Below the pieces are notes generated by a model that saw nothing but the letters and a program-made list of their open reading frames with translations, ran no database searches and had not been told where the DNA came from. A stretch of 63,960 bases of DNA, counting the filler, from Reclinomonas americana ATCC 50394 (lineage: Eukaryota), in NCBI GenBank assembly GCA_048213135.1. It is 15 parts of 15 records of this genome, joined end to end, with 100 filler letters (N's around TTAATTAATTAA, not from the genome) between each part and the next. Parts side by side here need not be neighbours in the genome. Positions count along the whole stretch, not along the records: positions 43,194 to 44,298 come from AFZH01022431.1; positions 44,399 to 48,419 come from AFZH01022432.1; 13 more parts are not named here. One strand, written 5' to 3'. Of this stretch, positions 43,890-47,159 are shown in pieces; within the stretch, counting starts at the first letter, position 1, and every line of letters starts with the position of its first letter. The translations under genes were made by a program, and so were the position numbers.

Positions 43890-44413
43890 ATGGCGGCGAG
43901 TGGCTCCGGGTCGCGTTCCGTCCTCGACCTTGACAACCCAGAGTTCTGTTGTCCGTGTGTGATTGATGTTGTCAGATGTCGCACTCACATCTCTGCTCGG
44001 CCGTCAGGTGTGCCAACTATGTGCGGTTCATGGCAGCCACGTTTGAGATGACCAAGGCACTGCAGCGCGAGTGTCATCATCGCCTCGCTGCCCTTCGTCG
44101 CATGTCGCCGGAATTTGATCCGCGTGAGTGGCTGAAGGGGGAGAAGAAGGCCAAGGCGAGGTATGTGTTTGGAAGTTGTGCGTTGAGGGTGCGAGTGCGA
44201 AACAAGAAATGTGTGCAGACGGGAGCTGAGAGAATAGAAGTGGAGGAACCGAGGGTTTGCGTGCAATAAGGGATTCAAACGAAGAGAGAGAGAGAGAANN
44301 NNNNNNNNNNNNNNNNNNNNNNNNNNNNNNNNNNNNNNNNNNTTAATTAATTAANNNNNNNNNNNNNNNNNNNNNNNNNNNNNNNNNNNNNNNNNNNNTC
44401 TTCTTTCTTTCTT

Positions 44414-44452
<39 letters not shown>

Positions 44453-47159
44453 CCTCATTCTGTCTCAAACGCATGTCTCCTTTGTTCCTCTCATTCTATC
44501 CTTGAACAAAAACGGCACAAGGTTGCTTCTCCATCAGACTCCCTGCATCTTATGGTCTCGCACTATGCTAACCTTGTGTTCACAATGCAGTCATCTTAAC
44601 CTTCGCGGGAAATGTCCACGTTTGGACCCACACAAGCGCCCTGATATTGAGGCTTATGTCGCCGATCCTGATGGGCATCGATGCAGCACGTGGGACAGCA
44701 CCATGTGCTGTGCGGTTCTGGAACATTGTTGTTTCAATGGGACGCCAGTTGCTTCTGATTTCGTGGTGAGTGTGCGAATAGCTTGTTTTCTTAATTGATC
44801 CGTGCCCTGACGAGAAGGTGCAAGGTTGCTGCCGTGCGCAATATTCGAGAACAAGGGCGAAATCTTGTGGCCCACTTGCCCACCATGAGCCTACCAGACC
44901 GTGATTTGCGTGCGGGAGTGACGGTGCTTATCGACAACCTCGCCGTGCTTCAGACCAACCGCCTATCAGGTGACTACGACCACAGTGATGTTGAGGCTGC
45001 ACTCCTGCAGTGTGCAACAGGTCTGTCATCTTGTATTGGTTCGACGAGTGTTGGCCACATTAAGTTGCTCAACCTTGTTGCGGAGCAGCACCGATCTCCA
45101 GTTTCGATGTGGTGGCTCTCGAGGCTCGAGTGCGACGAGAGGCCGCCGATGCTGCAGGTTTGTTTCTGCCAGCTGACGTTGTGTGTGCTTGGTTGTGCCA
45201 ATGTTGCTGGTTGCAGCACTCGTGTTGAGCCTTCGTGGAGCCATTGAGCACCGGCTCGGCCAGCAAGACCAAGTGATGCAGCGCATTCTTCAGCTCCTGG
45301 AGCGGTCCTCTCTCAATGACGAGCAGACGGCGTCACTAGCTACATTGGTGGGCAAGGCGGAAATGGCAGATGACGCTGGGGGTGCAGAGGTGGCGGTCGC
45401 GGCTGAAAACACACTTCGTGCTCTCAATCCAAGTTACTACTACCGTTTTCCACGTATTTCTCATCGTTCTGCTGACTATCTCATGCGCTCCCTTGCGAAA
45501 ACCAGGTGACCCGATCTTCCAGTTTGCGCATATCCCACCGACATCTCTGAAGCGATTCCGTGAGCTGGGTCGAGGTGGCTTTGGTGTCATTTATCTCGGT
45601 TCTTGGGAGGGCAAGCAGGTGGCCATCAAAGAGCTGCTGCTGGTTTCTCCCAGTGAGGAGGCCTTACGGTTTGTCTTGTGAAATAATGGAGATGATGTGG
45701 TTGTGAGACTGACCCGTGTCTCTCTCTCTCTCTCTCTCTCGCTCTCTTAATGTGGCACCAGCGAAATCGAGGAAGAGGGACGCCTGCTGCGACAGATTGC
45801 GCATCCGCACGTGCTTATGTGCTTTGGAGTCTGCCGCGTGGGCCAGCGGATGTCACTCGTTCTCGAGTATGCGGACGAAGGGGTTCGTCCCGTACTTTTA
45901 GATGTGCTGCACTGTCTTTCTCGACTGATTGCTCCTTGTCGCACTTCCAGGATCTGGCTTCTGTGATTCGCCGCTCTGGAGCTTCAGCAAAACCTCTGTC
46001 TCAGTTGCTCTTGTGGGTGGCGCAGGGTGCGCGTGGACTTGCTCATCTGCACCGTCATGGCATTTTGCATCGTGATGTCAAGCCAGCCAACATTTTGGTT
46101 TCAATGACTGATGGAGCCAAGTGAGTAAGTCTACCACCAGTTTGCTGATGTACAAGGCTTTCTCATGATTCGCACTTTGTAGAATATCTGACCTGGGTCT
46201 TGCGATTGTCAAGACAGAAACGAGATCAAAATCACCCACGAGTGCAGCAGCGTCCGCTGGAGGCGGGTCCATTCGATACATGGCACCAGAGGTACTCGAA
46301 TTGCGTCCACGGTACAGTGACAAGAGCGATGTGTTTGGACTGGCGTTGGTGATGCTGGAGTGTGTGACACGTGAGGTTTGTTGCACATGCTGCTGAAATA
46401 CACCCTCCTTTGGTCTCATACTTCTGTCTGCAGATACCGTATGTCGCCGTAACAGCTGACAGTGTAGTTCGTGAGGCAGTGCGAGCTGGCGAACGTGATG
46501 AAATTCCAGATGAGACTCCGAGGCAAGAATATGACATAACTAACTCCGAGGTCGAAAATGCTCTCATACAGCGAACGGCATGCAGGTTACTGGCAGATCT
46601 GATTGCTCGCTGCTGGGCGCAGAAGCCGGAAGATCGACCTGGAATGGGAGAAGTGGCGGAAGAGCTGGAACACATTGCCAGAGAGCTGGTGAGTTCATTG
46701 TGTTGGTGTGAGCGAAATTCAAACTGCAACTGATGCGCTCTGCGACAACTGCTGCAGCAACATGAAGCGGATGATCGACGAGTACAAGAGGAAGCCGCGA
46801 CGGCGCGTCGCTTGCATGACGAAGCAGTCCGCCGAGCGCAAGTAGTCGCAGCGGCTGGCGCTGAGCGTGCTCGACAAGAGGAACAGCGTCGACTTATTGC
46901 TGCTGCTGAGATCGAAAGGGTGAAGCGCGAAATGGATGAATCGGAGGTGGCACAAGCTGACAGAGACCGACCATGCGCCGGAGATGAGGCGCAGCGAATG
47001 GAGCGTCACCGTGAGGAGGCGAGTGCACGTCAGGGAGAAGACGCTGCGGAAGAACAACGTCCACATGAGGAAGAAGGATCCCGTGAACCGGTCGGTGCTC
47101 TTGCAAGTGGTGCATTTGCTGCAGTGGCTGTAGGTGCAGCGATGTGCACAGTTTTGTGA
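43890..47159 (+). CDS. HEPN - coiled coil - TKL-like protein kinase - charged tail (multi-exon, spans gap; 3' end may extend to ~48116)
   Basis: ALQRECHHRLAALRRMSPEFDPREW resembles the NLR N-terminus AVRLRCQRALAQFSRDHPDFDVRAW. Then WDSTMCCAVL and RNLVAH (44858-44875). Kinase motifs LGRGGFG, VAIK, HRDVKPANIL, SDLG, YMAPE, KSDVFG and CWAQKPEDRP. Confidence 0.85.

What the first reader, a model, noticed from the sequence alone, without database searches (positions are those of the whole stretch)
43890..47159. HEPN-kinase fusion: an RNase L/IRE1 analogue in reverse domain order
Splicing across the gap gives ECANYVRFMAATFEMTKALQRECHHRLAALRRMSPEFDPREW...CSTWDSTMCCAVL...VAAVRNIREQGRNLVAH, a diverged homologue of the NLR N-terminal domain. 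A coiled coil and a complete TKL-like kinase follow. Known: RNase L and IRE1 couple a kinase to a C-terminal HEPN-derived KEN RNase. Here the RNase is N-terminal and of another HEPN type. Inference: independent invention of a kinase-gated RNase, or a partner that heterodimerises with the neighbouring NLR HEPNs. The link is invisible in the ORF track because introns split it.
Basis: partly seen in the sequence, partly recalled or inferred. Interest (0 to 1): 0.8.

Follow-up and report, generated by a model that had tools for sequence, protein, structure and literature searches.

The report
Probable HEPN-like domain fused to kinase
An intron-rich gene in an unidentified eukaryote probably joins a putative RNA-cutting (HEPN-like) head, shared with two neighbouring immune-receptor-like genes, to an active-looking protein kinase and a membrane anchor, but no transcript confirms the join and the RNase identity of the head is only moderately supported.

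Summary
I built a stop-free model of 12 exons and 713 aa, every intron GT-AG (43890-47159, +). Its parts are an N-terminal ~175-aa domain, a helical linker, a kinase with all catalytic motifs, a charged stalk and a hydrophobic C-terminal tail.

Homology to the N-domains of the two flanking intronless NACHT-pentapeptide-WD40 genes is significant only for the first helix, in exon 2 (BLASTP 2e-6; 0 of 500 shuffles). The rest aligns collinearly, RNxxxH included, but not above chance.

The NLR domain is a probable Swt1-type HEPN: sub-threshold Pfam hit, and hhalign P 1.4e-4 against 72 bacterial PF18731 domains. For the kinase head the direct signal is marginal (P 0.053; HMMER finds nothing).

Weak points: exons 1-2 lie on a 1.1-kb contig bounded by assembly gaps, an in-frame ATG at 44565 could start a shorter protein, no RNA run was listed, and no relatives exist in the protein databases.

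Earlier notes of this scan report HEPN-like domains ahead of kinases in bacteria, on other DNA; I did not check them.

Verdict: a plausible new variant of a known theme, with the mechanism unproven.

The parts
43890..47159 (+). Whole proposed gene: 12 exons, 713 codons plus stop
   Evidence: No internal stop and all introns GT-AG. Codon-usage log-odds are positive in frame for exons 2, 4 and 6-12 of the final numbering (scored on the earlier 11-exon model). Exons 1 and 3 are uninformative.
43890..43942 (+). Exon 1 (aa 1-18), ATG start
   Evidence: ATG at 43890, donor GTTCTG. The codon score is uninformative.
44008..44160 (+). Exon 2 (aa 18-69): first helix of the head domain, the only part significantly like the NLR N-domain
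   Evidence: BLASTP E 2e-6. hmmsearch E 0.0035 among 1,434 ORFs. In-frame codon score 0.14 against -0.33 and -0.25 in the other frames.
44299..44398 (.). Assembly gap (N runs around TTAATTAATTAA) inside intron 2
   Evidence: The flanks are (GA)n on the left and (CT)n on the right.
44591..44765 (+). Exon 3 (aa 69-127): second block, ADP..C..WD.T
   Evidence: Acceptor CAG and donor GTGAGT, in the right phase. BLASTP to NLR1 is collinear but E 0.5. The codon score is ambiguous. An in-frame ATG lies at 44565.
44825..45009 (+). Exon 4 (aa 128-189): helix bearing the RNxxxH motif
   Evidence: Codon score 0.18 in frame. The 3' end is chosen by codon score; the alternative end is 45161.
44858..44875 (+). 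Codons for R-N-L-V-A-H (aa 139-144), the putative HEPN catalytic motif
   Evidence: MAFFT places it in the R and H columns, which are at least 90% conserved among 39 rows.
45102..45157 (+). Exon 5 (aa 189-208), helical linker
   Evidence: Codon score 0.47 in this frame. The model containing it scores 33.2, against 20.1 and 22.8 for models without it.
45217..45432 (+). Exon 6 (aa 208-280), helical linker, a putative coiled coil
   Evidence: A+L+E+R+Q+K make up 55% of aa 176-282. No coil predictor was run.
45506..45668 (+). Exon 7 (aa 280-334): kinase G-loop GRGGFG and VAIK
45762..45882 (+). Exon 8 (aa 334-374): kinase helix C region
45951..46120 (+). Exon 9 (aa 375-431): catalytic loop HRDVKPAN
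   Evidence: Pfam Pkinase 40.1 bits, cut-off 31.7.
46183..46375 (+). Exon 10 (aa 431-495): DLG and APE
   Evidence: Pfam Pkinase 31.4 bits and PK_Tyr_Ser-Thr 26.6 bits. Only one splice solution exists.
46434..46688 (+). Exon 11 (aa 496-580): kinase C-lobe, CW..RP motif
   Evidence: PK_Tyr_Ser-Thr E 1.3e-4. The best solved relatives by sequence are RKS1 (E 1e-3) and AXL (E 3.7e-3).
46758..47159 (+). Exon 12 (aa 581-713): charged helical stalk, then a hydrophobic C-terminal tail (aa 695-713), then stop
   Evidence: 46% D/E/K/R in the stalk. The highest 19-residue Kyte-Doolittle window of the protein is the last one, 1.98. No Pfam hit.
38420..42169 (+). NLR-like gene 1, intronless: HEPN-like N-domain, NACHT, pentapeptide repeats, WD40
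   Evidence: RNTLSH motif.
54789..58991 (+). NLR-like gene 2, intronless, same architecture; its N-domain is 58% identical to that of gene 1
   Evidence: RNKLRH motif.
51443..51622 (-). Truncated copy of the NLR N-domain (residues 21-80 of NLR2, 75% identical)

Best explanation
One gene at 43890-47159 (+), with 12 exons, encodes a protein of about 713 aa. From the N-terminus it has:
- a domain of about 175 aa homologous to the N-terminal effector domain of the two flanking NACHT-pentapeptide-WD40 genes; this is most likely a diverged Swt1-type HEPN domain that keeps the R-N-x3-H catalytic signature;
- a helical, probably dimerising linker;
- a catalytically competent Ser/Thr kinase with TKL/TK-type features;
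- a long charged helix;
- a C-terminal membrane anchor.

Inferred mechanism: the protein sits on the cytosolic face of a membrane. HEPN RNases need two domains to build one active site (established knowledge, recalled). So the head would be active only when the linker and kinase bring two copies together, or when it pairs with the HEPN head of an activated, oligomerised neighbouring NLR. It would then act as an RNase and kinase effector or relay of that NLR pathway.

Shown here: the gene model is self-consistent, the kinase motifs are intact, helix 1 is homologous to the NLR domain, and the NLR domain resembles Swt1-type HEPN. Inferred only: a single transcript, the HEPN fold of the kinase head, RNase activity, dimerisation, membrane anchoring and any link to the NLRs.
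For: Gene model:
- 11 GT-AG introns and no stop; three of the kinase introns have only one possible solution.
- Coding-like codon usage in frame in exons 2, 4 and 6-12 of the final model (scored on the earlier 11-exon model), with lower scores for most introns, though four of the ten have a positive best frame.
- Exon 4, which carries RNLVAH, has no upstream ATG in its open frame. It needs an upstream exon. Only 92+59 nt of intron and 73 nt of intron separate it from the linker and kinase exons.

Shared head:
- BLASTP E 2e-6.
- NLR-profile E 0.0035; the only hit besides the three NLR copies, next best 0.49.
- SW z 6.6, 0 of 500 shuffles.
- hhalign P 5.9e-4 over 139 columns.
- MAFFT puts three blocks in register: helix 1, ADP..C..[FW]D.T and RNxxxH.
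- RNxxxH occurs 17 times in 107,057 aa of window ORFs, so about 0.02 would be expected in 125 aa.

HEPN identity of the NLR domain:
- Pfam HEPN_Swt1 E 0.006 and 0.0016, on the motif helix.
- hhalign against 72 bacterial PF18731 domains: score 30.5, P 1.4e-4, maximum of 100 shuffles 22.5.
- NLR1 and NLR2 are the two best of 1,435 window sequences for a Swt1-only HMM, at homologous positions.
- R143 and H148 are the only columns at least 90% conserved in a 39-row alignment.
- Language-model neighbours at 0.90-0.93 include clusters in which 11-38% of members carry HEPN_DZIP3 and 20% carry HEPN_Swt1.

Kinase: GRGGFG, VAIK, HRDVKPAN, DLG, APE.

Tail: the last 19 residues are the most hydrophobic window of the protein, 1.98.

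Locus: the gene lies 1.7 kb downstream of NLR1 and 7.6 kb upstream of NLR2, on the same strand.
Against: - No transcript evidence.
- Exons 1-2 lie on a 1,105-base contig bounded by assembly gaps. The (GA)n | (CT)n flanks of the 44299-44398 gap do not match in strand, unlike the repeat-flanked gaps at 5654, 16388 and 33163. Placement and orientation of that contig therefore rest on scaffolding alone.
- An in-frame ATG at 44565 could start a protein that lacks helix 1.
- NLR 5' debris exists in the locus, at 51443-51622.
- Without helix 1 the head is not significantly like the NLR domain.
- hhalign placed the NLR RN motif opposite a different kinase segment than MAFFT did.
- The kinase head gets no Pfam hit at E <= 10, no HMMER hit with Swt1 or Swt1+NLR profiles and only P 0.053 by hhalign.
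- NLR2 alone gets no Pfam HEPN hit and hhalign P 0.018.
- Exon 3 has an ambiguous codon score.
Confidence: 0.5

Rival explanations
1. Shorter kinase gene plus unrelated upstream piece. The kinase gene starts at the in-frame ATG at 44565, or with an exon hidden in the gap. Exons 1-2 on the small contig are then either a decayed or captured 5' fragment of an NLR gene or part of another gene. The 'fusion' of a complete HEPN-like head with the kinase would be an artefact of scaffolding plus chance splice compatibility.
For: - The 1,105-base contig lies between two gaps, and the repeat flanks mismatch in strand.
- There is an in-frame ATG at 44565.
- A clear truncated NLR 5' fragment covering the same helix lies 4 kb away.
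- The significant likeness is confined to exon 2.
Against: - Exon 2 has coding-like codon usage in frame, a canonical donor right after the conserved block, and the phase that exon 3 needs.
- Similarity to the NLRs does not continue past the donor, as an intronless pseudogene would show.
- Blocks 2 and 3 follow in the NLR order on the next contig.
- A Swt1-type domain needs the first helix, which is within the 115-position Pfam model.
Confidence: 0.22
2. The gene is real, but the head is not an RNase. The shared N-terminal domain is a helical homotypic-interaction or other effector module, working like CARD in NOD2-RIPK2 or the four-helix bundle of MLKL. It only recruits the kinase to activated NLRs, and the RNxxxH motif in the kinase copy is fortuitous or non-catalytic.
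For: - The kinase head fails every direct HEPN sequence test except a marginal one.
- The only strongly conserved part between kinase and NLRs is helix 1, not the catalytic helix.
- Sharing an N-domain between NLRs and a kinase is the pattern of adaptor domains (recalled knowledge).
Against: - R, N and H are kept in all three proteins at aligned positions.
- The NLR domain scores above all shuffles against bona fide Swt1-type HEPN domains.
- No HeLo-, MLKL-, CARD- or Death-type Pfam hit at E <= 1 to 10.
- The kinase is not a pseudokinase.
Confidence: 0.18
3. Two transcripts from one locus. A small HEPN-only protein comes from exons 1-4, ending at the stop reached by reading into the next intron. 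A separate kinase starts at a downstream ATG in the linker.
For: Reading through the intron after exon 4 meets a stop at 45245-45247, and the linker exon has an in-frame Met.
Against: This would leave about 30 nt between the two genes, while other genes in the window are at least 1 kb apart. Both the splice sites and the codon score favour joining.
Confidence: 0.07

Closest known systems
Ire1 and RNase L (kinase or pseudokinase followed by the KEN domain, a HEPN-superfamily RNase)
   Same: One polypeptide holds a protein-kinase fold and a putative HEPN-type RNase. Ire1 is also membrane-anchored. In both known proteins, dimerisation driven by the kinase module switches the RNase on (recalled). 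The kinase-to-KEN fusion is described in Anantharaman et al. 2013, PMC3710099 (passages read).
   Different: - The domain order is reversed.
- The head resembles the Swt1 clade, not KEN; no Ribonuc_2-5A or other hit follows the kinase.
- The anchor is a C-terminal tail, not a lumenal sensor plus transmembrane segment.
- The kinase C-lobe looks TKL/TK-like.
- It is not a family member, at most an analogue.
HEPN-STAND/NACHT proteins: animal DZIP3- and CXorf38-type HEPN fused to NACHT, and bacterial N-terminal HEPN plus STAND NTPases
   Same: The two flanking genes have this architecture: an N-terminal HEPN-like domain, then NACHT and repeats. It is in print (PMC3710099, passages). I also saw it in one bacterial protein here, L161: HEPN_Swt1 plus NPHP3_N/AAA_16.
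   Different: The finding itself swaps the NTPase for a kinase. The NLR N-domain has no detectable sequence relatives in 1.84 billion representative proteins.
Bacterial Swt1-like HEPN proteins (Pfam PF18731; Ava_2192 type)
   Same: The R-N-x-W-A-H helix, the preceding ER..V..L helix and the D..aLL helix all align to the NLR domain. The HEPN domain is N-terminal in most of them.
   Different: Among the 24 examined:
- 5 have RNase III and/or a dsRNA-binding domain;
- 2 have DUF499;
- 1 has a STAND NTPase;
- 1 has AAA_35;
- 15 have no other Pfam domain;
- 0 of 24 have a kinase.

The long ones were cut about 500 aa after the HEPN domain.
NLR-kinase pairs that share a homotypic domain (NOD1/2 with RIPK2 through CARD; MLKL-type four-helix bundle plus pseudokinase): recalled, not tested
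   Same: A kinase carries the same N-terminal domain as neighbouring or partner NLRs.
   Different: The shared domain here looks like an enzyme (HEPN), not a Death-fold or pore-forming bundle, and the kinase motifs are intact.
Bacterial 'HEPN-like domain ahead of a Ser/Thr kinase' families noted earlier in this scan (e1-953784, e1-3092602, e1-3092601, e1-984477, e1-981008)
   Same: They have the same reversed order of parts, and R-N-x3-H signatures are reported.
   Different: They are bacterial and sit on other DNA. These are unchecked AI notes whose sequences I could not see. The present head has no detectable sequence relative anywhere.

Membership tests
HEPN superfamily, Swt1-like clade (Pfam PF18731) | R-x4-6-H catalytic motif (here R-N-x3-H) at the start of the last core helix | tested here: met
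   RNLVAH at aa 139-144 of the kinase protein; RNTLSH and RNKLRH in the NLRs. All three fall in the only two columns that are at least 90% conserved among 39 rows.
HEPN superfamily, Swt1-like clade (Pfam PF18731) | Significant match of the kinase protein's head to a HEPN family model | tested here: not met
   No Pfam family at E <= 10 for exon 4. No HMMER hit with Swt1 or Swt1+NLR profiles. hhalign P 0.053, barely above the 95th percentile of shuffles.
HEPN superfamily, Swt1-like clade (Pfam PF18731) | Significant match of the neighbouring NLR N-domain to a HEPN family model | tested here: inconclusive
   NLR1: 17.3 and 19.1 bits against a cut-off of 27.5; hhalign P 1.4e-4, above all 100 shuffles. 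NLR2: no Pfam hit, P 0.018.
HEPN superfamily, Swt1-like clade (Pfam PF18731) | HEPN fold (up-and-down helical bundle with the motif helix) | tested here: inconclusive
HEPN superfamily, Swt1-like clade (Pfam PF18731) | RNase activity dependent on a dimer | not testable with these tools
   Needs biochemistry.
Ire1 / RNase L (kinase-KEN) | KEN domain C-terminal to the kinase or pseudokinase | tested here: not met
   The 137 aa after the kinase have no Pfam hit at E <= 1. They are 46% charged and end in a hydrophobic tail. The HEPN-like part is N-terminal.
Eukaryotic protein kinase superfamily | G-loop, beta-3 Lys, HRD..N catalytic loop, DFG-type and APE motifs, and a match to the Pfam kinase models | tested here: met
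   Motifs. Exon-wise Pfam: Pkinase 40.1 bits (cut-off 31.7), PK_Tyr_Ser-Thr 29.8, 26.6 and 21.8 bits.
TKL group of kinases | Closest relatives are TKL kinases | tested here: inconclusive
   Only single exons could be searched. The C-lobe exon best matches RKS1 (E 1e-3) and AXL (E 3.7e-3). The catalytic-loop exon matches many groups.
MLKL / HeLo-type bundle plus pseudokinase | N-terminal pore-forming four-helix bundle and a degenerate kinase | tested here: not met
   No such Pfam family at E <= 1 to 10 for the NLR N-domains or the head exons. The kinase motifs are intact.
NACHT-type STAND NTPases (the neighbours) | NACHT domain with a Walker A motif, followed by repeats | tested here: met
   NACHT 33.8 bits (cut-off 26.7); pentapeptide 27.1 bits; WD40 312 bits.

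The most novel reading that the evidence does not exclude
The locus encodes a sensor-effector pair wired through an enzyme domain rather than an adaptor fold. Oligomerisation of the HEPN-NACHT-WD40 receptors would recruit the membrane-anchored HEPN-kinase by HEPN-HEPN pairing. A composite RNase site, with one R-N-x3-H from each partner, would form only on activation, while the clustered kinases trans-phosphorylate. That would be an independently evolved protist counterpart of RNase L/Ire1 signalling, placed directly downstream of an NLR.
Probability: 0.1. Interest if true: 0.8.

Novelty: new variant of a known kind. Interest (0 to 1): 0.5.

Why it matters
Kinase-coupled HEPN RNases (Ire1, RNase L) are central stress and antiviral switches. 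HEPN heads on NLR-like receptors are known from animals and bacteria.

A eukaryotic gene that puts a Swt1-type HEPN head in front of an active kinase, beside NLRs carrying the same head, would show two things. The kinase-RNase pairing arose more than once. It would also suggest a HEPN domain can serve both as an effector and as the link between a receptor and its kinase.

Three text searches listed no paper whose title, abstract start or read passages describe an N-terminal non-KEN HEPN fused to a protein kinase. Only PMC3710099 and PMC8195603 were opened; the library lacks most subscription journals, and supplements were not read.

The value is limited for now. The organism is unidentified, the gene has no detectable relatives, and the join and the fold are unproven.

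Tried and rejected
- RNA evidence: no RNA holder was listed for 44400-47300, so no reads could be laid.
- Whole genome: none is held, so other paralogues could not be collected.
- Relatives of the NLR N-domain:
  - Word-indexed search among longer proteins: none.
  - Full HMMER scan of 1.84 billion representatives: one hit at E 4.7e-4, a repeat protein matched on a short repeated stretch, judged spurious.
  - Metagenome contig scan: 202 pattern matches, none confirmed.
- Relatives of exon 4 among longer proteins: none.
- NACHT region: best hit 31% identical, a metagenomic NACHT-pentapeptide-WD40 protein with a different N-terminus.
- PDB by sequence: nothing for the NLR profile. The mixed profile gave only ribosomal protein S6 at E 0.009-0.04, judged spurious.
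- First AlphaFold model: pLDDT 47.8, and Foldseek found nothing.
- Second model: Foldseek found nothing at E <= 0.001.
- Protein atlas with exon 4: no usable hit.
- Complex prediction, two copies of the NLR1 N-domain: no verdict.
- Rfam on the whole window: no match.
- Pfam on 14 other long ORFs of the window: only a sub-threshold SprT-like hit.
- Bacterial PF18731 proteins checked for a kinase: 0 of 24.
- Earlier 745-aa model with exon 4 running to 45161: set aside for a lower codon score, 20.1 against 33.2.
- The spliced head could not be given to the Pfam, fold, atlas or complex tools, which take only unaltered window sequence. It was analysed only inside scripts.
I then worked by coordinates.
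Full report
**What the window is.** The window is 55% G+C. It is a scaffold of contigs joined by 100-base linkers, N runs around TTAATTAATTAA; there are 14 of them. Genes with short GT-AG introns show that it is eukaryotic. I could not name the organism. No genome is held, Rfam finds nothing, and the proteins of interest have no close relatives in the databases.

**The observation.**
- Exons 1 and 2 have the stated ends.
- Working by coordinates, I extended the model to the stop at 47157-47159.
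- Three of the four 3'-most kinase introns have a single in-frame GT-AG solution.
- Between the head and the kinase several solutions exist. Codon usage trained on the two NLR ORFs favours exons at 44825-45009, 45102-45157 and 45217-45432. That model scores 33.2, against 20.1 for my first 745-aa model and 22.8 for a one-intron alternative.
- The final model has 12 exons and 713 aa.
- On the 11-exon model scored, in-frame codon log-odds were positive in every exon except exon 1 (53 nt) and exon 3, where they were uninformative. Six of the ten introns scored at or below zero in all three frames; four had a positive best frame.

**The protein.**
- aa 1-18: a short leader.
- aa 19 to about 175: the head domain, with R-N-L-V-A-H at 139-144.
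- aa 176-282: a helix-favouring linker. I did not run a coil predictor.
- From about aa 290: a kinase with GRGGFG (301), VAIK (318), HRDVKPAN (414), DLG (434), APE (465) and CW..RP (555).
- Pfam recognises the kinase exon by exon.
- The C-lobe exon is most like the plant RLCK RKS1 and the receptor tyrosine kinase AXL among solved chains. The catalytic-loop exon is not discriminating. 'TKL-like' is therefore plausible but not established.
- aa 581-692: 46% charged.
- aa 695-713: the most hydrophobic 19-residue window of the protein, 1.98 on the Kyte-Doolittle scale. I read it as a tail anchor, by inference.

**The neighbours.** ORFs at 38420-42169 and 54789-58991 (+) are intronless. Each encodes an N-domain of about 200 aa, then NACHT, pentapeptide repeats and WD40. 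Their N-domains are 58% identical. A third, truncated copy of that N-domain lies at 51443-51622 (-); it is 75% identical to NLR2 residues 21-80. The finding lies between the two NLR genes on the same strand.

**Is the head homologous to the NLR N-domain?** For the first helix, yes.
- BLASTP of exon 2 against NLR1 gives 11/25 identities, E 2e-6.
- An HMM of the two NLR domains, run over 1,434 window ORFs, finds the two NLRs, the fragment, and then the exon-2 ORF at E 0.0035. The next hit is at 0.49.
- The Smith-Waterman score of the spliced head is 62 against 30.4 +/- 4.8 for shuffles; 0 of 500 shuffles reach it.
- hhalign gives P 5.9e-4 over 139 columns.

The rest is collinear but not significant.
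- Exon 3 against NLR1 gives E 0.5.
- Exon 4 is not aligned on the motif by BLASTP.
- With helix 1 removed, local and semi-global scores give z between -0.09 and 1.71, and 72 to 488 of 1000 shuffles reach them.
- hhalign and MAFFT disagree on which kinase segment faces the NLR RN motif.
- In favour of the MAFFT register: the local match [LI]-R-E-x(1-2)-R-N-x-[LV]-[SA]-H, and the rarity of RNxxxH, 17 in 107,057 aa of window ORFs.

**Is the domain a HEPN?**
- Pfam gives NLR1 a sub-threshold HEPN_Swt1 match exactly on the motif helix: E 0.006, and 0.0016 for the C-terminal half alone, at 17-19 bits against a cut-off of 27.5. NLR2 and the kinase exons get nothing.
- Language-model neighbours of NLR1 at 0.90-0.93 include clusters of which a minority of members carry HEPN_DZIP3, DUF4559 or HEPN_Swt1. 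The recognition value was below the tool's mark.
- For a profile-profile test I collected bona fide PF18731 domains from bacterial genomes. 45 of 401 genomes in one phylum and 47 of 401 in another had a match. I aligned 72 of them.
- hhalign of that profile:
  - NLR1: score 30.5, P 1.4e-4; the maximum of 100 shuffles was 22.5.
  - NLR2: score 19.0, P 0.018.
  - Spliced kinase head: score 16.7, P 0.053; the 95th percentile of shuffles was 15.8.
  - Three-sequence profile: P 3.3e-4.
- A Swt1-only HMM ranks NLR1 first (E 0.014) and NLR2 second (E 1.7) of 1,435 window sequences, at homologous positions. It does not find the kinase protein, and neither does a Swt1+NLR HMM.
- In an independent MAFFT alignment of 39 rows, the only columns at least 90% conserved are the R and the H, and the exon-4 row is in register.

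**Structure.**
- With two rows AlphaFold gave pLDDT 47.8.
- With the 39-row alignment it gave 78.5, pTM 0.71. That alignment contains HEPN sequences, so the model is not independent evidence.
- Foldseek found nothing.
- Among the 50 listed entries were:
  - Csm6, Cas13, HepS, SO_3166 and AbiF, which I know as HEPN-bearing (recalled).
- My reading: the NLR domain is probably a diverged Swt1-type HEPN, about 0.7. The kinase head is probably the same fold, about 0.55-0.6.

**Weak points of the fusion.**
- Exons 1-2, which include the only significantly NLR-like part, lie on a contig of 1,105 bases between two gaps.
- At the 44299-44398 gap the flanks are (GA)n and (CT)n, so they do not match in strand.
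- An in-frame ATG at 44565 could start a protein without helix 1.
- NLR 5' debris exists nearby.

Against these stand four points.
- Exon 2 has coding-like usage.
- Its donor lies right after the conserved block.
- It ends in the phase that exon 3 needs.
- A Swt1-type domain would be incomplete without its first helix.

I put the single-gene, complete-head model at about 0.65-0.7.

**Mechanism (inferred).** HEPN RNases act as dimers, and Ire1 and RNase L use their kinase modules to drive that dimerisation (recalled; the kinase-KEN fusion is in PMC3710099, passages). Here the linker and kinase could play that part, or the head could pair with the head of an activated NLR.

**Comparison with what is known.**
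- HEPN heads on NACHT proteins are in print: the DZIP3 and CXorf38 families, and bacterial HEPN-STAND proteins (PMC3710099, passages; PMC8195603, passages). I saw one bacterial HEPN_Swt1-STAND protein myself, L161.
- Kinase plus HEPN is known as kinase-KEN.
- None of 24 bacterial PF18731 proteins that I scanned has a kinase. The long ones were cut about 500 aa after the HEPN domain.
- Three text searches listed no paper whose listing describes an N-terminal non-KEN HEPN on a protein kinase; only two of the listed papers were opened.
- Earlier notes of this scan report bacterial families with a HEPN-like module ahead of a Ser/Thr kinase. I could not see or test those sequences, and they did not move my scores.

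**Verdict.** This is a plausible new variant of a known theme. The gene model and the kinase are solid. The shared first helix is real. The HEPN label is moderate for the NLRs and weak to moderate for the kinase. The join across the gap and every functional claim remain open.

Noticed in passing
window 51443-51622 (-): A truncated copy of the NLR N-domain, 75% identical to NLR2 residues 21-80. It ends in unrelated sequence and a stop. Probably gene debris, which shows that 5' fragments of these NLRs are scattered in the locus.
   Followed up: partly
window 38420-42169 and 54789-58991 (+): Both NLR-like genes are single open frames of about 1,250 and 1,400 codons, while the kinase gene between them has 11 introns. 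The best database relative of the NACHT region is a metagenomic NACHT-pentapeptide-WD40 protein, 31% identical, with a different N-terminus. This hints at a bacterial-type origin with swapped heads.
   Followed up: partly
window 62331-62537 and 63733-63960 (+): Further WD40 repeats, 50-70% identical to those of NLR2, run off the window end. They are probably part of a third NLR-like gene.
   Followed up: no
window 44299-44398 and flanks: The gap inside intron 2 has (GA)n on its left and (CT)n on its right. Three other repeat-flanked gaps (5654, 16388, 33163) have the same strand of repeat on both sides. The orientation of the 1.1-kb contig 43194-44298 may deserve a check.
   Followed up: partly
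window about 46521-46583 (aa 525-545 of the model): A 21-residue segment within the kinase C-lobe exon looks like an insertion relative to typical kinases. It is bounded by GC...AG, so it could be an in-frame 63-nt GC-AG intron.
   Followed up: no
L093, L094, L100, L103, L097 (bacterial loci): Proteins of about 330-440 aa join an N-terminal HEPN_Swt1 domain to RNase III and a dsRNA-binding motif, so two RNase types sit in one chain.
   Followed up: no
L161:1629-3176 (+): A bacterial protein with N-terminal HEPN_Swt1 followed by a STAND-type NTPase (NPHP3_N, AAA_16, TANC1 lid). This is the same head-plus-NTPase plan as the window's NLR-like genes.
   Followed up: no
window 30293-32494 (+) and 34513-35490 (+): One 734-codon open frame is rich in Gly/Ser/Asn/Thr repeats. 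Another, of 326 codons, is cysteine-rich. Neither has a Pfam match at E <= 0.001.
   Followed up: no
window 26975-27670 (+): A sub-threshold SprT-like metalloprotease match: E 1.9e-4, 21.7 bits against a cut-off of 25.6.
   Followed up: no
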